Shown here: positions 2,794-30,091 of the stretch, piece by piece
Layout of the letters: each line of letters starts with the position of its first letter
Position numbering within the stretch: position 1 is the stretch's first letter
Sequence record: OR670062.1
Direction: 5' to 3' (one strand)
Length of the DNA: 37,572 nucleotides
Source of the DNA: Escherichia phage SKA5
Made by a program: the position numbers and the translations under genes
Notes under the pieces: generated by a model
Database searches by the model: none
Told to the model about the DNA's origin: nothing
What the model saw: only the letters and a program-made list of their open reading frames with translations

Positions 2794-3114
2794 CTAAATC
2801 AGATCACCAATGTATTTTGCACTAATTGAAATTTGCATCTGAGGCATTCCGACCACAGATCCATTTAACAGGTAATCACGTCCTCGTTCCTGCAAAGAAA
2901 GACTCAATTCAAAGTTCTTTACCCCAGGGAAAACCGAGGTGACATTTAAATCATGCTGCGATACGCGCAGAATAAGTTGGCTACCGTCAATTTTTCCCTG
3001 ATACGTAAAACCAAAATCTCCGCCGTTTACTGCATTGTTTTTGACAACTACGGTACCATTACCAAAATCACGTTGATTGCTTCTGAAAACAACAAAATAG
3101 ATACCATCTTTCAT
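2794..3114 (-). CDS. hypothetical protein (AT-rich moron between lysis and packaging genes)
   Basis: 106-aa ORF with no signal peptide, its own terminator, and visibly lower GC than the flanks. No family recognised. Confidence 0.5.
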   Translation of the reverse strand: MKDGIYFVVFRSNQRDFGNGTVVVKNNAVNGGDFGFTYQGKIDGSQLILRVSQHDLNVTSVFPGVKNFELSLSLQERGRDYLLNGSVVGMPQMQISISAKYIGDLI

Positions 3115-3206
3115 GTGTAAAGCCCTTTAAAAGAGTCACCAAAATCAGGTGCTTTGTATCTATTGGGCCATCACATATCAAATCAAGGAACAAAACAAAG
3201 TTAACA

Positions 3207-3476
3207 TCATTTTTTTTGCATGATGTGACCACGCTCAACTTCAATCCTTCTGATGTCAGCTTTATCGGTATTACACTGCGCCAATGCAGACAACAAGGCG
3301 ACATTCAGATCTAAGCTCGAGCCCCACGTAAAATGATCAGGTAAATCAGGCTGAGGGGTTTCAGCCGTCAGGCTGGCTGGTAACGGAACTACCGGAACCT
3401 GGACGTAAACTGTTCGCGTACTTCCGCAACCGGTCAGCAGCGGCAGCAGGCACAGGACGTGAAGCACAATCATCAT
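3207..3476 (-). CDS. Rz1-like outer-membrane spanin lipoprotein
   Basis: ORF in an alternative frame overlapping the 3' end of the Rz-like gene. From the MM start: signal peptide with lipobox LLTGC followed by a Pro-rich segment. Confidence 0.55.
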   Translation of the reverse strand: MMIVLHVLCLLPLLTGCGSTRTVYVQVPVVPLPASLTAETPQPDLPDHFTWGSSLDLNVALLSALAQCNTDKADIRRIEVERGHIMQKK

Positions 3477-16830: not shown

Positions 16831-17250
16831 TTACTCATCATCAATAGATGATACGCAATATTTATTTTTAAATTTAAGGTTCTTTGGCGTAACTTCATCA
16901 GAGATATCAAAACCGTCCAGAATTCTATTGAATGTAGCTTCTGGCATATCATCATGAACAGAAATCTCACCCGATCGCTGCTTTCTAACCATGTTATCCA
17001 CTCGCCAAATTATAGCTTCAGCGTAAACAACATAACTTGGATGCTTGATAAAGCGATGATCACCAGAATTCAAGACGCAAGACGGATCGTGGGGGACACC
17101 ATCCTTGATACTAGAAATATTAACAACTAAAACACAATAACAATCGTTAACGGGGTAATAAACAGGATCATTACAAATCACATGAAGATGATTGCATGGC
17201 CCAGTTGGGGCAAGCACAGTTCCTTTCCTGTATGGCTGATAATCCGTCAT
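16831..17250 (-). CDS. hypothetical protein; candidate toxin/effector partner of the Panacea-domain protein
   Basis: 139 aa, Cys/His-containing, AT-rich codon usage. Its start overlaps the stop of the upstream Panacea-like gene (ATGA). No family recognised. Confidence 0.5.
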   Translation of the reverse strand: MTDYQPYRKGTVLAPTGPCNHLHVICNDPVYYPVNDCYCVLVVNISSIKDGVPHDPSCVLNSGDHRFIKHPSYVVYAEAIIWRVDNMVRKQRSGEISVHDDMPEATFNRILDGFDISDEVTPKNLKFKNKYCVSSIDDE

Positions 17251-17819
17251 GATAATTGCAAAGAAAATTCCTTAAGTTTCTGAGATTCTTCCATTTTGCC
17301 AATTATGCGATTAGCCTCATCCTCGCTTTTACCCTCACTGATCAGCATTTCTTTCAGGTCTATAGGCTTACGAGAATTGCCAGGATCGTGCCACTCTGGA
17401 CAAACGCTTTCTAAATGCGTCATATTTGCGAGATCAAATCGGTTCATATGCCCATACCGAGAATAGATTTCATCTAAAATCCGGATATCTGCACGACTCA
17501 ATTCATCAAAGACCTCGTCTGCATCCATTTCCCTCGGATCTGAACGCAACGATACATTATGCCCGTTCGTCTCTATCAAGTTGTACCAGTAGTCACCAAT
17601 GCCTTCAGCCTTACCGCGAATCAAGTTCAGCGTATTCGACATGACTGGTCCAAATTTCATAGAGTAAAGGCTATCTTCGCCGATCATCCTGCCATGCTTC
17701 AAAATCGACTGGCGGTTAGACAGATAGAGCAACTTCATCAATTTCAGATATGCCATGCGCCCACCTCGCTTAAGAAGTAGGTATGCAGCCATTTGAGCTA
17801 CTTTTTCTTCGCAAAACAT
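17247..17819 (-). CDS. Panacea (DUF4065, GepA/SocA-like) domain protein; candidate antitoxin
   Basis: 190 aa with motifs I associate with DUF4065 (AAYLL, KLMKLLYLSNRQS, FGPV, ILDEIYSRYG...LANMTHLESVCPEW). First gene of an AT-rich minus-strand unit. Confidence 0.6.
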   Translation of the reverse strand: MFCEEKVAQMAAYLLLKRGGRMAYLKLMKLLYLSNRQSILKHGRMIGEDSLYSMKFGPVMSNTLNLIRGKAEGIGDYWYNLIETNGHNVSLRSDPREMDADEVFDELSRADIRILDEIYSRYGHMNRFDLANMTHLESVCPEWHDPGNSRKPIDLKEMLISEGKSEDEANRIIGKMEESQKLKEFSLQLS

Positions 17820-18011
17820 ATAAGAAACCTCAAAGATAGTGAACTTTATAATTATTCTCGATACTTCATGGGTTGCTTCATCACCAACACGAGCTTCTTA
17901 TGGTGTGCCCACTTGGGCCTAAGCAACCAGTTACCTCGTTTGTCAAGTTTATAGCTGGCTTTAACCATGGTCAATTGAAGTGATGAGCAAATGATGCTTT
18001 CTAAGAATAAC

Positions 18012-18246
18012 AGGTTCCCAATAGGATCCCACAAAGTGTATAACTAGTTGTTTTTCAAAAACGGTACATCCTATCGAGCATAGGAGCAATGCTAAACCGA
18101 GAATTCCAGTAAACACCAGTTTTTTCAGGCATCACGCTGGTTTGATTAATTTTTTGTGTTTCATGATTATCGTGCATTTTTGAACATTTCAGGCTATTTT
18201 TCTCGCATTAGGTTCCCGCACAGGTTCCCACGTTTTATGGGAACCC
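18012..18246. repeat. clustered (A/G)GGTTCCC(A/G) repeats; candidate integrase arm-type sites / attP region
   Basis: Copies at 18012-18020, 18023-18031 (one mismatch), 18210-18218 and 18222-18230, with an inverted copy at 18238-18246, in the AT-rich non-coding stretch just upstream of the integrase gene. Confidence 0.35.
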
Positions 18247-18265
18247 GAAATAACGAGGTCGTGTA

Positions 18266-19363
18266 ATGGCGTACTATAACATAGAGAAACGACTAAAATC
18301 CGATGGCACACCACGCTATCGCTGTAATGTGATTATCAAAGAAAAAGGTGTTATCACTTACAGGGAAAGCAAAACATTCCCTAAACATGCTCATGCCAAA
18401 ACATGGGGCACACAGAAAGTGATGGAATTAGATCTATATGGCATTCCATCATCAAATGCAGTTGACGGACTTACAGTCCGTGACTTACTACACAAATATT
18501 TAAATGACCCAAATGCCGGAGGTAAAGCAGGCCGTACTAAAAGATATGTGCTGGAACTGCTTATGGATAGTGACATCTCCGCGATCAAACTATCTGAACT
18601 GACAGAAAATGACGTAATTGAACATTGCAGGCTAAGAAACAACGCTGGCGCAGGTCCAGCAACAGTCAGCCACGATGTTAGTTATCTTGGCAGTGTTCTG
18701 GATGCGGCCAAACCTGTATACGGAATTAATTACACATCAAACCCGGCGAAAAGTGCTCGTCCATATCTACTTAAACTTGGTTTGATTGGTAAATCAAACC
18801 GTCGTAATCGTAGACCAGCATCTGATGAACTGGACATGCTCATTGAAGGCCTTCAACAACGATCTACTCATAAATGCTCAAAAATTCCGTTCGTTGATAT
18901 CCTCAAATTTTCTGTGTGGTCCTGTATGCGAATCGGAGAAGTATGCCGGTTACGATGGGAAGATCTCGACCAGGAACAAAAATCTATACTCGTAAGAGAC
19001 AGGAAAGATCCACGCAAAAAGGAAGGCAACCACATGAAAGTAGCCTTGCTTGGGGAAGCCTGGGATATCGTCCAACGACAGCCCAAAAAATCGGAATTCA
19101 TTTTTCCATATAACAGCACTTCTATTACTGCGGGATTTCAGAGGGTAAGAAGCAAATTAGGTATTAAGGATCTGCGATACCATGATTTGCGTAGAGAAGG
19201 GGCAAGTCGCTTATTTGAGGCTGGTTTTAGTATTGAGGAAGTAGCCCAGGTTACAGGGCATCGTTCATTAAACGTGCTATGGCAGGTATATACCGAACTG
19301 TATCCGAAATCTTTACATAATCGTTTTGAAGAGCTCCAAAGGAGCAGAAATAAGACCCCTTGA
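18266..19363 (+). CDS. tyrosine-type site-specific integrase
   Basis: 365 aa with C-terminal catalytic-domain motifs (HDLRREGASRLF, GHRSLNVLWQVY). Confidence 0.9.
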   Translation: MAYYNIEKRLKSDGTPRYRCNVIIKEKGVITYRESKTFPKHAHAKTWGTQKVMELDLYGIPSSNAVDGLTVRDLLHKYLNDPNAGGKAGRTKRYVLELLMDSDISAIKLSELTENDVIEHCRLRNNAGAGPATVSHDVSYLGSVLDAAKPVYGINYTSNPAKSARPYLLKLGLIGKSNRRNRRPASDELDMLIEGLQQRSTHKCSKIPFVDILKFSVWSCMRIGEVCRLRWEDLDQEQKSILVRDRKDPRKKEGNHMKVALLGEAWDIVQRQPKKSEFIFPYNSTSITAGFQRVRSKLGIKDLRYHDLRREGASRLFEAGFSIEEVAQVTGHRSLNVLWQVYTELYPKSLHNRFEELQRSRNKTP

Positions 19364-19409
19364 CACTGTTTATCCATACAGTTAAAAATAATACTGTATA
19401 CAAACACAG
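19360..19409 (+). promoter_or_regulatory. SOS-regulated promoter region with two LexA boxes
   Basis: TTGACA at 19360-19365, then two CTGT-N8-ACAG boxes (CTGTTTATCCATACAG at 19366-19381; CTGTATACAAACACAG at 19394-19409), directly upstream of the dinI-like ATG. Confidence 0.6.
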
Positions 19410-19424
19410 TATAGAGGGACTTTT

Positions 19425-19673
19425 ATGCGTATTGAAATCTGCATAGCCAAAGAAAAAATGACTAAAATGCCAACCGGTGCTGTGGATGCGTTAAAGGAAG
19501 AATTAACCCGACGCATCAGTAAACGTTATGACGATGTAGAGGTGATCGTAAAAGCCACCAGCAACGATGGCCTTTCTGTTACACGCACCGCAGATAAGGA
19601 TTCTGCAAAAACTTTTGTTCAGGAGACTCTGAAAGATACCTGGGAATCTGCTGACGAGTGGTTTGTTCACTAA
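19425..19673 (+). CDS. DinI-family protein (SOS-inducible RecA modulator homolog)
   Basis: 82 aa; [10 protein letters not shown]-terminus and [16 protein letters not shown]-terminus closely resemble DinI. Confidence 0.85.
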
Positions 19674-25170: not shown

Positions 25171-26249
25171 CAGAACGGGTCCTCCTGTACTCTGGCTTTT
25201 TTCTTTTTCCGCGCGCCGGGGGCTTCGGGTTCAGGCAGATAAGCATCAGGCGGGCCGACACGGATTTCCGTCAGGGTGCCGTTCTGGTCCTGAGTAAACG
25301 TGACTTCCGAAACAAGCAGTTCGGTATTGTCGAAACCACAGACCGGATCAAAGACAATCACCCGCTGGTTGGGCTGCCACAGCGTACCGTTACCCTGTCG
25401 CCAGCCCTGCACCACATAGGTGGTTTCATCCGTCCGCGCCGCCCGTTGTCGGGCTTCAAAGTCAGCACGGGCAATACAACCTGCCCCCGTAGCCTGCCCT
25501 GTCTGCCTGATATACATCGGACGGTAACGGGCAATAAATGCGTCCTCTGTGCGGGCCCGCAGCGCGGTGGTGGTGGCCTCACCGAAATCATCGTCGTTTC
25601 CGGCACGCTGCCCCGCCACCTGGTAAACAGAAAATCGCTCCCGGATACTCTTCTCCGTATCGCAGGAAAGGATGTTTTCCCCGAGTACCAGCGCGGTATG
25701 TGCCCGCGTTGAGCCAATACCGCCAATCACCAGCCTGCCGTGCGGGTCGTCGTAAGCCAGTGCCTGCTGCTGACCGAGTATTTTGTTAATCACCTCGATC
25801 ACCGTTTCACCGTGATCAGGCTGGACATCAGGAATAACACCCGACGGCGCACCGCTGTTCACCACCTCAATGCCGAAGGGCGCAGCAAGCGCCTGCGCAA
25901 TCTGTACCAGCGATCGTCCGTTAAACTGTGTCGGTTCGGCTGCACAATCAATCAGGTCAGCGGTCAGACTGCGTCCGGCAATACCGGTGCTGACCGAACG
26001 GGCATCGTAACGAACGGGCGTCGCCTCCACCCAGCCGGTGATCACCAGCTCATCACCAATCAGCACCTCCACTTTTGAACCGTTTTTAATGCGCGGCTGA
26101 AGCGTGGTGATACCCTCATCACCCGGCCACTGGCGGGTGATCTCCACACTGAAATCCCGCGCCAGCCGTTCAATACCGGCACCGATGCGCACCGATGTCC
26201 AGCCATTCCACTCCCGGCCATTTACCCGTAGCGTGACATTGTCGTTCAT
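25170..26249 (-). CDS. baseplate hub protein (Mu gpP / gp44-like)
   Basis: 359 aa downstream of the DNA circularisation protein. Confidence 0.7.
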   Translation of the reverse strand: MNDNVTLRVNGREWNGWTSVRIGAGIERLARDFSVEITRQWPGDEGITTLQPRIKNGSKVEVLIGDELVITGWVEATPVRYDARSVSTGIAGRSLTADLIDCAAEPTQFNGRSLVQIAQALAAPFGIEVVNSGAPSGVIPDVQPDHGETVIEVINKILGQQQALAYDDPHGRLVIGGIGSTRAHTALVLGENILSCDTEKSIRERFSVYQVAGQRAGNDDDFGEATTTALRARTEDAFIARYRPMYIRQTGQATGAGCIARADFEARQRAARTDETTYVVQGWRQGNGTLWQPNQRVIVFDPVCGFDNTELLVSEVTFTQDQNGTLTEIRVGPPDAYLPEPEAPGARKKKKARVQEDPF

Positions 26250-27574
26250 TGCACTGGCACCTTCAGAGGGATCACCGGCACAAAGCCGGGATGCGTAATG
26301 GCATTACGCCGAATAATGTCCGCGTCACGCGCCGCGTTATCAAACCAGGTCGCCGCCAGCACCAGCGCGGGTAAAACCTCATCCGGTGTGCGCTGAATGA
26401 TCCGTGCAGACTGTTCAAGGCGCGTGTTGATATCCGCATTCAGATCTGCTTTCACCCGGCGCAGCGCCAGAAACAGCGCATCACTGGTTGTACGGGACAA
26501 CTCCTTATCAATTGCCGTATTCAGTGTGTCGCGAATGTCAGTCAGTTCTTCCCACGTCGGCAGGTCAACTGTGTTTTTCACCGCCGGTGCATTGTTCAGT
26601 GCCGGATGCGTGACGGAAGGCCAGCCAGTGCTCTGCGCAGGTGTTGTTGCCTGCCCCACTGCGGCATTCTGCATCACCGCGGAAGTTGTTGGCGCAGGCA
26701 ATCGGGTGACGGCATACGCCGCTTCGCTGATTGCGGTCGTACGAAGGGTGCTGGCAACCACGTTACGCTGCTGCGTCGCCGTGGCGGTGGTTTTACTGTC
26801 CGTTTTCCAGACGCCGCGCGGTTGCAGATCGCTGCCAAGGCTGACACCAGAAAGCGTTTTGATCATGGTGACCAGGTCGCTGGCGTTACCGTAAAGGCGT
26901 TTCCCGGTACGCCACATTTTCTGCACCTGCTCAACGAAATTTTTGCCTGACGATGGTGGCGGCAGAAGTACCGAGATATCCCCCTGCAACAGCCTGGCCG
27001 CATCCGATACGGCAGAATCCACCACTTTCATCGCATCAGAAACATACCCCAGCATTATGCTGGCATTACCGATAACGTCGTTCTGCACGAAATCCGCCAC
27101 ACCATCGATACTGAAACCGCTGAAGCTGTCACTGATGCAGTCATCCAGTGCAGAACAGGATGACATCAGCGTCTGCGCCGTCGCCGCACCTGATGTGGGG
27201 TAAGAGAGTTCTCCTGCTTCGACAAACTTCAGGTCAAAGCGGACAATACGCCCTTCACTTTTCGATGTGCTGACCCGAACTTCCCCGTCAACACAGACTT
27301 TCAGCTCACCATATGTCGGGTGGACAAGCGTGCCTGGACCGGGTTTATTCAGCGCGTCAATCAGGCGATCGCGCTGGTCAAAGCAGTCATCTCCTACCAC
27401 ATAAGCTGTGATGGACGGGCGGAAAGTGACTTTTCCCAGATCTTCGGTATAGGGCTTGTCGCGGTTCGGATATTCGTGTGTTTCCACACGGCGACCGGTT
27501 CCCGCACTTTCTTCTTCAACCTTAAACGGTACGCCGCGAAATGACGCATCCTGAAGCCTGTCTTTCCACGTCAT
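26246..27574 (-). CDS. DNA circularisation protein (Mu gpN / gp43-like)
   Basis: 442 aa; N-terminus (MTWKDRLQDASFRGVPFKVE) typical of the family. Confidence 0.75.
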   Translation of the reverse strand: MTWKDRLQDASFRGVPFKVEEESAGTGRRVETHEYPNRDKPYTEDLGKVTFRPSITAYVVGDDCFDQRDRLIDALNKPGPGTLVHPTYGELKVCVDGEVRVSTSKSEGRIVRFDLKFVEAGELSYPTSGAATAQTLMSSCSALDDCISDSFSGFSIDGVADFVQNDVIGNASIMLGYVSDAMKVVDSAVSDAARLLQGDISVLLPPPSSGKNFVEQVQKMWRTGKRLYGNASDLVTMIKTLSGVSLGSDLQPRGVWKTDSKTTATATQQRNVVASTLRTTAISEAAYAVTRLPAPTTSAVMQNAAVGQATTPAQSTGWPSVTHPALNNAPAVKNTVDLPTWEELTDIRDTLNTAIDKELSRTTSDALFLALRRVKADLNADINTRLEQSARIIQRTPDEVLPALVLAATWFDNAARDADIIRRNAITHPGFVPVIPLKVPVQ

Positions 27575-27664
27575 ATAAACTCCGGATATAAAAAACCCGC
27601 CAAATCTGCTTTGTCAGTTATTTACATCGCAGAAGATGTGGCGGGAACCTAATATTTTTAATTA

Positions 27665-28159
27665 CTATCTGAGTTGAACATCAATGGAATAAATATCACC
27701 ACTCTTTATAAATTTAGAATCTGTCCTTTCATCAAAAGATTCAAATGACTGTACCTTTAAAAACTTTTTCATTTTATTTTCAAAAATACTTTCATTAACA
27801 CCAGTTAAATACTTGAATGCTCTACCAGCAAGGACCTCATTACTTAAATCCATTGTGTTTTTATTGTCTTTGAAAAACCAAACAATAACCTTTTGTGGGC
27901 ATGATGGATTATAAACAGATATATAAAACTGCGGTTCATATTTTTCATCAGCGTCATCACTAAGCATTTCTTCAGAAGATAATTCTCTTCTGAATTCATA
28001 TTGCCGCTTAGTTATTCCTTCATCCTTTATTATCTCTTGCTTAACTGGTGCAATACCTATAGAAGAGATTAATTCTGACTCATTAAAGCTGAACTTACAC
28101 TCTTCCGCAGCCAAGTTAAAAGATAAAAGTGCAGATATAAAAAAAACAAAGATACGCAT
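27665..28159 (-). CDS. secreted hypothetical protein (AT-rich moron inside the tail operon)
   Basis: 164 aa from MRIFVFF with a GAAGGG SD; the ORF-track start is 28177. N-terminal signal peptide (FISALLSFNLAA / EECK) with no lipobox. Strongly AT-rich. Confidence 0.6.
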   Translation of the reverse strand: MRIFVFFISALLSFNLAAEECKFSFNESELISSIGIAPVKQEIIKDEGITKRQYEFRRELSSEEMLSDDADEKYEPQFYISVYNPSCPQKVIVWFFKDNKNTMDLSNEVLAGRAFKYLTGVNESIFENKMKKFLKVQSFESFDERTDSKFIKSGDIYSIDVQLR

Positions 28160-28258
28160 AATCATCCCTTCAATCATTTGTAAGGAATGATTATATTAAC
28201 TACTTAAATCTGAAAACCCAAATTATGCCAGACAAAAACACATTAATCATTTTGTACA

Positions 28259-30091
28259 CTACCTGAACCGCGTATAGCCAACATCATGGCTGACATCAAA
28301 ACCGCTGGATCGCGTTTCCATAACCCGCATACCCGGAGGCGAATTCACAAAAGATACCTTGATCTCACCATCAACTTTTGGCACAGAAGCTTTGTTAATC
28401 ATGAAGGGATTCGAGCCTGTGGCATCGGAGGCGTTGTTTGCCTGAGCCGGATCCACCGCCGGATAAGGAGTGTATCCCCGTGGCGGTATTCCCGTCCCAT
28501 AAGCATCATAAGCACCCGCGCCCCACTGCGCCGAGTTAATGGCATCGACCGTGTCACCGGAACTGTCGGTAAACCATTCAATAATCGGCTTCAGCTTACC
28601 CCACATATCCTGAAACCACTTAACAACCGGTCCCCAGTTATTGATCACCATCCCCAGCGGCGACCAGGCAAAAACCTTCTTCAGAAGTTCCCAACCTGCC
28701 TCAAAATAAGGACCAATGGTTTCCCAGAGCTTCTTGAAATAAGGTCCGACAACATCCCAGTTAGTGATAATTAATCCCGCAGCCAGAGCAATCGCCGTCG
28801 CAATCATGCCAATCGGCGTCATCGACATGATCCTGCTGACAATACTGATGGCACTGCCCACGCCCATCAATCCCAGTTTCAGAATCGCAAGACCGGCAGC
28901 AAGCCCGACGACGCCGCGAATAACCCGGGGATTTTCATCCGCAAACTTCGTGAATTTCTCCCCCAACTCCCCCAGCCATTGTGTGATATTTTTAGCGTCA
29001 CCAGAAAATGCGCCGCCAATAGCCGCAAGGCCGTTAGTTGCGGTCCCTGTCATTGCCTCCCACAGGTTGGACAGCGTACCAAGCTGTGCCTGAACACGTT
29101 TATTCAGGCTGGCCTGTTTATTCATCTTCTGCTGGATCTGATCGTAGCCATCCTTTCCTTTATCGATTAGTGCATTGACCACCTGAAGGGTTTCGGCATC
29201 ATCACCAAATATTGCCTTAAGTACACCTGTTCGCTTAACGTCGGTCAGTTTTCGCAGCTTTGCCAGTTGCCTGAACATGTTATCAAGACCGCCAAAACTT
29301 CCTTTGCCGTCAGTAAAATCGAGCTGTACCCCGAGTTTCTGGCGGGCCATAACTTTATTAACGTCCCTGATTTTCTTAACGCTTAATCCGGACTGGATAA
29401 CTTTTCGCAGGGCATTACCTGCCGACTCCCCGTTCATCCCCATCTGATCCATCATGACGCTGATGGGGGCAAGGCTCTGTGCAGCCTGAAGACCATCCTT
29501 GTTCACCATCTTCAGAACAGAACTGGTTTTAGTGAAGAAGGACAACATGTTGGTATCGTCAACGCCCAGATAAAACGCCTTCTGGATAGTGTCGAACAGC
29601 CCCATCATGTCTTCTGACGCCGTTCCGGTAGCATCCTGCATCTTTGCAGCAAACTCAGCAGCCGCTTCCGGTGTTTTTTTCAGTTGTACCGCAAGATAAG
29701 CTGTCGCTTTACCCACACCACCCAGAATGTTTTCTGCCGGGATCCCCTGACGCACCAGCATCTGCATCATGTTCTGGAAATCAGCCGTTGTACCGGGTAG
29801 CTGGTTACCCAGGCCAATAGCCAGTTTATTGATGTCCTGAAAGCTCTTTCCAACCTCGCCGTTCGCATCCATCATGGCGACTTTCAGCCCGGTGGCGGCG
29901 TTTTCCTGATCGGCATAAGATTTCAGGGAAAGCGTCAGACCCGCTGCCAGTCCGCCACCAAGCGCCAGCCCACCCTGTGACGCTTCTTCCGCCTGGCGTT
30001 TAAATCCCCGGATTTTCTTTTGCATTTTCGACAGCGCGGGAGAAAGCCTGTCGACACCGGTGATCAACGCCTTAAGCTCAAATTCAGCCAT
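28259..30091 (-). CDS. tail tape measure protein
   Basis: 610 aa, Ala/Gly-rich with hydrophobic stretches, downstream of the frameshifted chaperone genes. Confidence 0.85.
   Translation of the reverse strand: MAEFELKALITGVDRLSPALSKMQKKIRGFKRQAEEASQGGLALGGGLAAGLTLSLKSYADQENAATGLKVAMMDANGEVGKSFQDINKLAIGLGNQLPGTTADFQNMMQMLVRQGIPAENILGGVGKATAYLAVQLKKTPEAAAEFAAKMQDATGTASEDMMGLFDTIQKAFYLGVDDTNMLSFFTKTSSVLKMVNKDGLQAAQSLAPISVMMDQMGMNGESAGNALRKVIQSGLSVKKIRDVNKVMARQKLGVQLDFTDGKGSFGGLDNMFRQLAKLRKLTDVKRTGVLKAIFGDDAETLQVVNALIDKGKDGYDQIQQKMNKQASLNKRVQAQLGTLSNLWEAMTGTATNGLAAIGGAFSGDAKNITQWLGELGEKFTKFADENPRVIRGVVGLAAGLAILKLGLMGVGSAISIVSRIMSMTPIGMIATAIALAAGLIITNWDVVGPYFKKLWETIGPYFEAGWELLKKVFAWSPLGMVINNWGPVVKWFQDMWGKLKPIIEWFTDSSGDTVDAINSAQWGAGAYDAYGTGIPPRGYTPYPAVDPAQANNASDATGSNPFMINKASVPKVDGEIKVSFVNSPPGMRVMETRSSGFDVSHDVGYTRFR

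What the first reader, a model, noticed from the sequence alone, without database searches (positions are those of the whole stretch)
27575..28258. Strongly AT-rich moron encoding a secreted protein inserted between the tape measure and DNA-circularisation genes
An insertion in the middle of a conserved tail operon is unusual. The gene (27665-28159) has its own SD, an AT-rich upstream region with promoter-like sequences, and a hairpin plus T-run downstream. Its product has a classical signal peptide (FISALLSFNLAA then EECK) with no lipobox and no family I recognise. Secreted prophage morons typically act in lysogenic conversion (virulence, serum or phage resistance) or superinfection exclusion at the envelope.
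Basis: partly seen in the sequence, partly recalled or inferred. Interest (0 to 1): 0.6.

Follow-up and report, generated by a model that had tools for sequence, protein, structure and literature searches.

The report
Exported-protein cassette in prophage tail slot
An SfV-type E. coli prophage carries, in a swappable slot between two tail genes, a small AT-rich gene for a protein exported to the periplasm; it is an ordinary kind of phage add-on ("moron"), most likely protecting the lysogen's envelope against other phages, but its protein family and fold are uncharacterised.

Summary
A 164-aa ORF lies on the minus strand at 27665-28159 in a 31% GC island; the flanks are 51-55% GC. It sits between the tape measure gene and the Mu-gpN-like "DNA circularization"/hub gene of an SfV-family prophage. 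It has a conserved signal peptide, two invariant cysteines and a downstream hairpin plus T-run.

Some details need correcting:
- The site is a polymorphic slot. The flanks occur in about 1,100 of 5,426 E. coli genomes, but this gene occurs in only 84-86.
- Other states are empty (the commonest, including SfV, SfI, SfII and SfIV) or hold one of at least four unrelated cassettes. Every cassette encodes an envelope-targeted protein.
- One alternative cargo matches a PHROG annotated "superinfection exclusion Sie-like".
- This family (PHROG 8976, unknown function) is tiny and sits in this same slot in 8 of 9 contexts across Enterobacterales. It diverges in step with the tail genes, so it is an old resident, not a recent insertion.
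- The hairpin/T-run belongs to the slot, because the empty state has one too. An own promoter is not supported beyond chance.

The AF2 model is confident, but its fold matches nothing solved. The best reading is a periplasmic exclusion or envelope-protection factor, analogous to HK97 gp15. Function is untested.

The parts
27665..28159 (-). CDS of the cargo protein: 164 aa precursor, predicted 146-aa mature form of 17.1 kDa and pI 4.9. PHROG 8976, unknown function.
   Evidence: ORF. Full-length PHROG 8976 match, E = 3e-107. RefSeq annotates the same ORF as WP_001219112.1, hypothetical protein. dN/dS is 0.15-0.20 among E. coli copies. There are 39 invariant columns among 13 homologues. AF2 model pLDDT 88, pTM 0.80.
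28106..28159 (-). Codons 1-18: predicted Sec signal peptide MRIFVFFISALLSFNLAA, with cleavage predicted before E19.
   Evidence: The strongest hydrophobic 11-mer of the protein starts at residue 3, with no other TM-like segment. The -1 Ala is nearly invariant and -3 is small or aliphatic in all homologues. pLDDT is about 50 for residues 1-20, against above 90 for most of the rest of the protein. Only 3 of 58 window ORFs have such an N-terminus; the other two are a spanin and a holin.
28160..28258 (-). 99-nt AT-rich spacer between the TMP stop and the cargo start. It contains an SD-like GAAGGGA (28165-28171), a TATAAT hexamer without a -35, and TGGCATAAT.
   Evidence: Sequence. No consensus promoter. 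The extended -10-like match is expected in 39% of shuffles. The spacer is 72-134 nt in close relatives but 15-16 nt in AH07 and the P0024 loci.
27590..27645 (-). Terminator-like hairpin (arms 27639-27645 and 27596-27602, with an inner 5-bp stem) plus a T6 run (27595-27590), directly upstream of the DNA-circ RBS.
   Evidence: Fold of -24.4 kcal/mol, z = -2.35. Equivalent hairpins (mostly ACCCGC-TTCG-GCGGGT plus a T-run) occur in allele A2, Kosakonia, L011, L023, AH07, L018 and cassette C. Cassettes B and D and the empty slot have a hairpin of different sequence at the same place. So this is a slot feature.
28259..30091 (-). Tail tape measure protein gene, the upstream boundary of the slot. Homology between slot states ends within its last 1-3 codons (...GYTRF).
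   Evidence: PF10145 and PHROG 28/17727. Breakpoint alignment. The C-terminal ~200 aa are its most divergent part between relatives.
26246..27574 (-). Mu gpN-like 'DNA circularization'/baseplate hub gene, the downstream boundary of the slot. Homology resumes at TTTTTTAT-N4-GGAGTTTATATG.
   Evidence: PF07157 and PHROG 184. Breakpoint alignment. The identical protein WP_000219915.1 flanks cassette A (L001, L029) and cassette B (L003).

Best explanation
The feature is one allele of a polymorphic accessory-gene (moron-type) slot. The slot lies between the tape measure gene and the gpN-like hub gene of SfV-family temperate myophages.

Shown:
- The slot is empty, or carries one of at least five unrelated small cassettes, in about 1,100 E. 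coli genomes.
- Cassettes are delimited by the last codons of the TMP and by a hairpin/T-run in front of the hub gene's RBS.
- They have no transposon ends. Different cassettes lie next to an identical hub protein, which fits exchange by homologous recombination in the conserved flanks.
- This cassette encodes a protein under purifying selection. It has a conserved Sec signal peptide and two invariant cysteines. The confidently predicted alpha/beta fold has no solved counterpart.

Inferred:
- The precursor is exported by Sec and cleaved after Ala18. It then folds in the periplasm as a 17-kDa acidic soluble protein with one DsbA-made disulfide.
- It is made during late transcription, read through under Q antitermination. 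It is possibly also made in the lysogen.
- In the periplasm it interferes with a step of phage entry after adsorption. The likely targets are the tape-measure/hub proteins that an incoming tail ejects into the periplasm, or a host envelope factor they need. That would be superinfection exclusion.

The terminator-like hairpin would keep any cassette transcription in the lysogen from running into the baseplate genes.
For: Slot polymorphism:
- The flanks are in 1,097 of 5,426 genomes; this cassette is in 84-86.
- A 60-row spread sample gave: empty 27, cassette B 10, A 5, OB-fold 4, C 3, only the hub gene matched 10, one other.
- Examples were fetched for each state.
- SfV, SfI, SfII and SfIV are empty.

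Cassette boundaries:
- Breakpoints defined by alignment; no TSD or TIR.
- The identical hub protein WP_000219915.1 lies next to A and B.

Export:
- All six cargo proteins (five unrelated families) have their hydrophobic peak at residues 3-8, or a lipobox. Only 3 of 58 ORFs in the window do, and the other two are lysis proteins.
- Invariant C21 and C87.

Guilt by slot:
- The OB-fold cargo matches PHROG 8545, 'superinfection exclusion Sie-like' (E = 1.5e-49). It lies in the immunity-repressor operon of Burkholderia phage Carl1.
- The cargo C family lies in the accessory region of Fels-2, and directly upstream of the TMP in an Acinetobacter phage.

Precedent:
- HK97 gp15 is a moron next to the TMP gene. 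It is an envelope protein that blocks genome entry in a tail-dependent way (PMC3594210).
- Escape from Ltp and gp15 maps to the TMP/tail (PMC10883804).

Maintained function:
- dN/dS is 0.15-0.20.
- The family is retained in the slot down to about 40% identity.
Against: - No experiment or expression data exist for this family, and the accession numbers appear in no paper searched.
- There is no sequence or fold similarity to any known exclusion protein or defence system.
- An own promoter is not demonstrated. In AH07 and the P0024 loci the gene is packed 15-16 nt behind the TMP, so expression there may be late-only.
- Genomes carrying this cassette more often hold a second copy of this tail region: 9 of 30, and 3 of 5 against 4 of 55. 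This was not corrected for clonality. It does not fit strong exclusion of phages with the same tail.
- The Sie-like label of PHROG 8545 is an annotation, not a tested function.
Confidence: 0.45

Rival explanations
1. Lysogenic-conversion factor unrelated to phages. The periplasmic protein would change host envelope physiology or host interaction, for example stress, serum or antimicrobial tolerance, or colonisation. Lambda Bor and Lom are examples of this kind.
For: It has the same architecture as classical conversion morons and is an exported protein. Carriers come from diverse animal, human and environmental sources. One distant relative lies outside any phage, just downstream of an autotransporter gene.
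Against: The family is otherwise confined to one slot of one tail type (8 of 9 contexts). That is hard to explain for a general fitness factor. It matches no virulence or resistance family. Carriage shows no obvious link to a pathotype.
Confidence: 0.17
2. A late-expressed helper for the phage's own lytic cycle. The protein would be made with the tail proteins and exported to the periplasm. There it would stop progeny, or other virions, from wasting their DNA on the dying cell and its debris (as T5 Llp does), or it would modulate envelope breakdown. It would not act in the lysogen.
For: The gene sits in the same orientation inside the late tail operon. It lies 15-16 nt behind the TMP stop with an SD in AH07 and the P0024 loci. 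No own promoter is demonstrable. It co-diverges with the tail genes over a long period.
Against: It is dispensable in most relatives, including viable phages. In the E. coli and Kosakonia clade it has 72-134-nt AT-rich spacers. One cargo (OB-fold) is on the opposite strand and therefore cannot be part of the late transcript. That implies independent transcription for at least one slot occupant.
Confidence: 0.2
3. Periplasmic immunity or inhibitor protein against a non-phage attack. Candidate attacks are a bacteriocin or tailocin, a type VI effector, or a lysozyme. Orphan immunity genes and the Ivy/Pli inhibitors are examples.
For: It is a small, acidic, disulfide-containing soluble periplasmic protein. 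This is typical of such inhibitors. Contractile-tail bacteriocins share the tail architecture encoded around the slot.
Confidence: 0.08
4. A virion structural or tail-assembly component of this tail type.
For: It holds a conserved position between the TMP and hub genes across genera.
Against: It is absent from about 92% of E. coli prophages with these flanks and from the viable phages SfV, SfI, SfII and SfIV. It is replaced in the slot by unrelated proteins, including one on the opposite strand. The conserved cleavable signal peptide would take it out of the cytoplasm, where tails assemble.
Confidence: 0.02

Closest known systems
HK97 gp15 moron (Juhala et al. 2000; Cumby et al. 2012; reviewed in PMC3594210)
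   Same: A small accessory gene with deviating GC content, inserted in the tail operon directly beside the tape measure gene. It is absent from close relatives. Its product is envelope-located. Its function is superinfection exclusion at genome entry, and specificity is determined by the incoming phage's tail/TMP.
   Different: gp15 is a YebO-like inner-membrane protein of a siphovirus and lies upstream of the TMP. Here the product is a 146-aa soluble periplasmic protein of unrelated sequence, lying downstream of the TMP in a contractile-tail phage. No homology was found. The function here is untested.
P1 Sim (superimmunity) protein - recalled from memory (Kliem and Dreiseikelmann 1989; Maillou and Dreiseikelmann 1990), not checked with tools
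   Same: A Sec-processed soluble periplasmic protein of a temperate myovirus that blocks infection after adsorption. It is the closest mechanistic analogue for a periplasmic, non-membrane exclusion factor.
   Different: Different size, genomic position and phage type. Sequence and fold were not compared here because I did not retrieve Sim. This is a lead, not a test.
TP-J34 Ltp and lactococcal Sie proteins
   Same: Prophage-encoded, exported and surface-anchored proteins that block DNA injection. Escape mutations map to the tape measure protein (PMC3952083 abstract; PMC10883804).
   Different: They are Gram-positive lipoproteins or membrane-anchored proteins encoded in the lysogeny module. There is no sequence relationship.
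Accessory/defence hotspots of temperate phages (P2 tin/old and Z/fun regions; from memory: Rousset et al. 2022)
   Same: A fixed inter-gene position in a conserved backbone that carries alternative, unrelated, AT-rich cargo. Relatives of cargo C from this slot lie in the corresponding region of the P2-like phage Fels-2.
   Different: Cargo here is uniformly small envelope-targeted single genes rather than cytoplasmic defence systems, and none matches PADLOC. I found no description of this slot in the SfV-family papers or by full-text searches.
Lambda Bor/Lom, T5 Llp, phi80/N15 Cor
   Same: Exported proteins encoded by morons in or next to tail and late regions. They alter the lysogen's envelope, giving serum resistance, adhesion or receptor blocking (PMC3594210).
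   Different: Those are lipoproteins or outer-membrane proteins. This protein has no lipobox or beta-barrel and no homology to them.

Membership tests
Moron (Hendrix/Juhala definition) | Present in some but absent from otherwise homologous phage genomes | tested here: met
   Present in 84-86 of about 1,100 E. coli genomes that have the flanks. The slot is empty in SfV, SfI, SfII and SfIV.
Moron (Hendrix/Juhala definition) | Nucleotide composition differs from neighbouring genes | tested here: met
   GC is 0.31 (GC3 0.24) against 0.51-0.55 (GC3 0.56-0.59).
Moron (Hendrix/Juhala definition) | Own promoter | tested here: inconclusive
   No consensus sigma-70 site. The extended -10-like match is expected by chance in 39% of shuffles. 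There is no room for a promoter in AH07 and the P0024 loci.
Moron (Hendrix/Juhala definition) | Own terminator | tested here: inconclusive
   A hairpin plus T6 is present. An equivalent element is also present in the empty slot and in other cassettes, so it is not specific to this cassette.
Moron (Hendrix/Juhala definition) | Expressed from the repressed prophage | not testable with these tools
   Needs RNA-seq, 5'-RACE or proteomics of a lysogen (for example ECOR29, which carries the cassette).
Sec/signal-peptidase-I exported protein | n-region positive charge, 10-15-residue hydrophobic core, small residues at -3/-1, no lipobox Cys | tested here: met
   M-R / IFVFFISALLSF / NLAA|EE. This is conserved in 13 homologues. 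Tested by heuristics only, because SignalP was not available.
Bacterial lipoprotein | Lipobox [LVI][ASTVI][GAS]C at the end of the signal peptide | tested here: not met
   No lipobox match in the first 30 residues. The first Cys is residue 21, three residues after the predicted cleavage site, in the context AAEEC.
Known superinfection-exclusion families (HK97 gp15/YebO, P22 SieA, T4 Imm/Sp, Ltp, Cor, Llp, PHROG Sie families) | Sequence or fold homology to a characterised member | tested here: not met
Known superinfection-exclusion families (functional class) | Blocks infection after adsorption when expressed alone | not testable with these tools
   Requires plating-efficiency and DNA-entry assays.
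Tail structural/assembly protein of Mu-type tails | Universally present in functional phages with this tail, and cytoplasmic | tested here: not met
   Absent from SfV, SfI, SfII, SfIV and most prophages. Has a signal peptide.
PHROG 8976 | Full-length profile match | tested here: met
   E = 2.8e-107, residues 1-164 of 164.
Transposon/IS-borne cargo | Terminal inverted repeats, target-site duplication or a transposase | tested here: not met
   No boundary repeats. Breakpoints coincide with the conserved gene ends.

The most novel reading that the evidence does not exclude
The TMP/hub junction of SfV-type myophages may be a dedicated 'entry-exclusion cassette' locus. Its interchangeable, unrelated, envelope-targeted cargo proteins would each block the trans-periplasmic injection machinery (ejected tape measure and gpN-like hub) of competing contractile-tail phages. 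Under this reading, the family studied here is a new-fold, soluble periplasmic inhibitor. It would have co-evolved with the variable C-terminus of the adjacent tape measure protein since before the Escherichia/Pantoea/Yersinia-type tail modules diverged.
Probability: 0.2. Interest if true: 0.65.

Novelty: new member of a known kind. Interest (0 to 1): 0.4.

Why it matters
Exclusion proteins acting on contractile-tail phages in Gram-negative bacteria are poorly known, and soluble periplasmic ones hardly at all.

If this family blocks entry, it offers three things. It is a small, well-folding probe (pLDDT 88) for what a Mu-type tail ejects into the periplasm. It is a natural allelic series of at least five unrelated cargo families on near-identical backbones, suitable for comparative tests. 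And the slot is present in roughly a fifth of complete E. coli genomes, so it may influence phage-therapy host range.

If it does not block entry, it remains an ordinary uncharacterised moron.

Tried and rejected
- Family searches for the cargo (Pfam, NCBIfam, PADLOC) returned nothing.
- PDB sequence-profile search returned only noise, best E = 0.004 over 48 residues.
- Foldseek against the PDB gave a best E of 0.05 at TM 0.2.
- The AlphaFold-DB library was not available.
- BFVD gave one significant neighbour: A0A8S5RVB8 from a gut siphovirus, labelled 'ABC transporter periplasmic binding protein', TM 0.63, 13% identity. I could not retrieve or examine it further.
- I tested whether cargoes A, B, C and D are hyper-diverged alleles of one family. 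hhalign rejected this, with probabilities below 2%.
- Rfam scan of the island found nothing meaningful.
- Search for transposon-like boundary repeats found none. A 19-nt, 84% direct repeat (27577-27595 / 28126-28144) lies inside the cassette, not at its ends, and is probably AT-rich chance.
- The extended -10 motif shared by cassettes occurs in 3 of 5 strict matches. By my estimate that has a chance probability of about 0.06, so I do not claim it.
- Literature: no paper mentions the RefSeq accessions or PHROG 8976. The SfIV and SfII papers describe other morons, not this slot. The SfV genome paper is not held. One search failed on a two-letter term.
- I did not retrieve P1 Sim for comparison.

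Full report
**1. What is in the sequence**

- The window is a lambdoid temperate phage with a Mu-type contractile tail.
  - The tail region matches phages SfV, SfI and SfII at 97-98% nucleotide identity.
  - A near-identical prophage lies next to dusA in E. coli PigCaeca_2.
- At 27665-28159 on the minus strand there is a 164-aa ORF.
  - Upstream is the tape measure gene (28259-30091; PF10145).
  - Downstream is the gene with the DNA_circ_N domain (26246-27574; PF07157; PHROG 184, baseplate hub).
- The island is 0.27-0.33 GC in 200-nt windows, against 0.51-0.60 in the neighbouring genes. It is the most AT-rich stretch of the window.
- The bias is strongest at synonymous sites: GC3 is 0.24 against 0.56-0.59.

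**2. The protein**

- The N-terminus is MR + IFVFFISALLSF + NLAA|EE.
  - The only strongly hydrophobic segment starts at residue 3.
  - There is no lipobox.
- In 13 homologues at 55-66% identity the -1 Ala is nearly invariant and -3 is small or aliphatic. Cys21 and Cys87 are invariant. This fits export and a periplasmic disulfide.
- In the window only 3 of 58 ORFs have such an N-terminus: a spanin, a holin and this gene.
- The predicted mature protein is 146 aa, 17.1 kDa, pI 4.9 and hydrophilic.
- AlphaFold2 gives a confident model (pLDDT 88, pTM 0.80). The signal peptide is disordered and is followed by a compact alpha/beta domain.
- The fold has no convincing counterpart.
  - The best Foldseek PDB E-value is 0.05.
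  - The PDB sequence-profile search gave only noise.
  - The viral structure library gives one neighbour, from a gut siphovirus (TM 0.63, E = 7e-6).
- The family matches no Pfam, NCBIfam or PADLOC model. It is PHROG 8976, unknown function.
- An exhaustive profile search of 1.84 billion representative proteins found only 12 members.
- dN/dS among E. coli copies is 0.15-0.20, so the gene is maintained by selection.

**3. The site is a polymorphic slot, not a one-off insertion**

- The flanks occur in 1,097 of 5,426 complete E. coli genomes. The cassette occurs in only 84-86.
- An evenly spaced sample of 60 records gave the counts below.

| Slot state | Records (of 60) |
|---|---|
| Empty | 27 |
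| Cassette B | 10 |
| This cassette (A) | 5 |
| OB-fold cassette | 4 |
| Cassette C | 3 |
| Only the hub gene matched | 10 |
| Other | 1 |

- Fetched examples show what each state contains.

| State | Content |
|---|---|
| Empty | About 60-nt gap; also empty in SfV, SfI, SfII and SfIV |
| B | 176 aa, N-terminal TM or signal segment |
| C | 225 aa, lipobox LLGGC |
| OB-fold | PF12869, N-terminal TM segment, opposite strand |
| D | 162 aa, signal peptide ...NSFA\|KP |
| A2 | 62%-identical allele of A |

- A, B, C and D are unrelated by profile comparison.
- All are AT-rich (GC3 0.26-0.41).
- All six cargo proteins (five unrelated families) are envelope-targeted.

**4. Boundaries and mobility**

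- Alignment of the states shows that homology runs to the last 1-3 codons of the TMP (...GYTRF). It resumes at TTTTTTAT-N4-GGAGTTTATATG, which is the T-run, RBS and start of the hub gene.
- There are no target-site duplications, terminal inverted repeats or transposase genes.
- The identical hub protein WP_000219915.1 lies next to cassette A (L001, L029) and cassette B (L003).
- I infer that cassettes are exchanged by homologous recombination in the conserved flanks.

**5. Regulatory signals**

- It is a property of the slot, not of the cassette.
  - A compact hairpin, ACCCGC-TTCG-GCGGGT plus a T-run, sits at the same place in allele A2, Kosakonia, metagenome and CP011078 loci, and cassette C. 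It appears with small changes in AH07 and the P0024 loci.
  - Cassettes B and D and the empty slot have a hairpin of different sequence plus a T-run there; the empty-slot version is ATCCCAC-TCCG-GTGGGAT + T6.
- An own promoter is not supported.
  - The consensus scan finds none.
  - The one extended -10-like match is expected by chance 39% of the time.
- The TMP-to-gene spacer is 72-134 nt in the E. coli and Kosakonia clade. It is only 15-16 nt in Pantoea phage AH07 and the P0024 loci. There the gene must be transcribed with the tail operon or from within the TMP gene.
- Expression in the lysogen therefore remains open.

**6. The family is an old resident of this slot**

- Every phage-borne homologue examined lies between a PF10145 TMP and a PF07157 gene of the same tail type. 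The examples are:
  - Kosakonia (L009, L010);
  - metagenome contigs (L011-13 and L018-20);
  - Pantoea phage AH07 (42% identity);
  - a 3.7-Mb genome, CP011078 (L023-25);
  - E. coli allele A2.
- The only exception is a distant copy without a signal peptide, next to an autotransporter gene.
- Identity of the cargo to the window protein follows the same rank order as the flanking proteins, about 15 points lower.
  - Cargo: 62, 61, 59 and 40%.
  - TMP: 76, 77, 78 and 56%.
  - Hub: 71, 76, 74 and 52%.
- So the AT-richness is not a sign of recent arrival; it has persisted. GC3 is 0.31-0.42 in distant members.

**7. Function**

- Nothing is known experimentally, and no paper mentions the accessions.
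- The inference rests on five points:
  - predicted export to the periplasm;
  - uniform envelope targeting of unrelated cargo at one slot;
  - the OB-fold cargo's full-length match to PHROG 8545, 'superinfection exclusion Sie-like' (E = 1.5e-49), and its position in the immunity-repressor operon of Burkholderia phage Carl1;
  - relatives of cargo C in the accessory region of Fels-2 and just upstream of the TMP in an Acinetobacter phage;
  - the precedent of HK97 gp15, the first moron. It lies beside the TMP gene and is an envelope protein that blocks genome entry in a tail-dependent manner (PMC3594210). Escape from Ltp and gp15 also maps to the TMP/tail (PMC10883804).
- I therefore commit to a periplasmic entry-exclusion or envelope-protection role, with confidence of about 0.45.
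- Against it:
  - there is no homology to any known exclusion protein;
  - the promoter is unproven;
  - cassette carriers more often hold a second copy of this tail region (9 of 30; 3 of 5 against 4 of 55; not corrected for clonality). That does not suggest strong exclusion of same-tail phages.
- Rivals:
  - a late-only helper for the phage's own cycle (0.20);
  - a non-phage conversion factor (0.17);
  - a periplasmic immunity or inhibitor protein (0.08);
  - a structural protein (0.02, effectively refuted).

**8. Novelty and verdict**

- The kind of element is well known: a moron in a tail operon encoding an envelope protein.
- New here are the protein family's lack of any fold or sequence relatives, and the recognition that the TMP/hub junction of SfV-type phages is a cassette slot with uniformly envelope-targeted cargo. 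I found no description of this slot.
- I rate it a new member of a known kind, with moderate interest (0.4).
- It is readily testable, because ECOR29 carries the cassette.

Noticed in passing
window 27590-27645; L002 about 880-930; L003, L004, L016, L008, L009, L011, L018, L023 at the equivalent place: A terminator-like hairpin plus T-run sits directly before the hub gene's RBS in nearly every slot state, including the empty one. It is often the same ACCCGC-TTCG-GCGGGT sequence in unrelated cassettes. It may serve as the right-hand recombination boundary, or as an internal attenuator of the late operon.
   Followed up: partly
L021 6001-6471 and L022 6001-6471: A distant family member (P0023, 156 aa) lies outside any phage, 60 nt after a 1,079-aa autotransporter gene and its terminator. 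It has no signal peptide and no Cys21, and its GC is 0.37 against 0.52 for the locus. This is the only non-slot context found.
   Followed up: partly
E. coli genomes: Genomes carrying this cassette more often contain a second copy of this TMP/hub region (9 of 30; 3 of 5) than other genomes with the region (4 of 55). This was not corrected for clonal relatedness, and the second loci were not inspected.
   Followed up: no
window 28259-28860 (TMP residues about 400-610): The C-terminal ~200 residues of the tape measure protein, next to the slot, are its most divergent part between relatives. Identity is 0.39-0.42 in the 500-600 bin, against 0.84-0.99 in the N-terminal 400 residues.
   Followed up: partly
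L014 3686-4749 (E. coli EBJ001): A prophage of this type is cut off by an IS1A insertion inside the OB-fold cargo gene. The TMP and everything upstream are replaced by host genes (LacI-family regulator, maltoporin).
   Followed up: no
L027 3130-4946 (Acinetobacter phage PhabP_R1): A relative of cargo C (47.6% identity) lies directly upstream of that phage's tape measure gene, beside a DUF4258 toxin / XRE antitoxin pair. This is another TMP-adjacent accessory cluster, in an unrelated phage.
   Followed up: no
window 2901-3350, 12601-13500, 16651-17400, 17801-18400, 19101-19550: Milder AT-rich stretches (GC 0.36-0.40). The last three lie around the integrase gene (18266-19363) and could hold further accessory genes.
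   Followed up: no
window 27577-27595 and 28126-28144: A 19-nt direct repeat at 84% identity links the hub gene's T-run/RBS region and the signal-peptide codons of the cargo (TTTTTTATATC...). It is probably chance in AT-rich DNA.
   Followed up: no
BFVD entry A0A8S5RVB8: This is the only significant structural neighbour of the model. It is a 180-aa protein of a gut siphovirus contig, labelled 'ABC transporter periplasmic binding protein' (TM 0.63, 13% identity). I could not retrieve its sequence or context.
   Followed up: no
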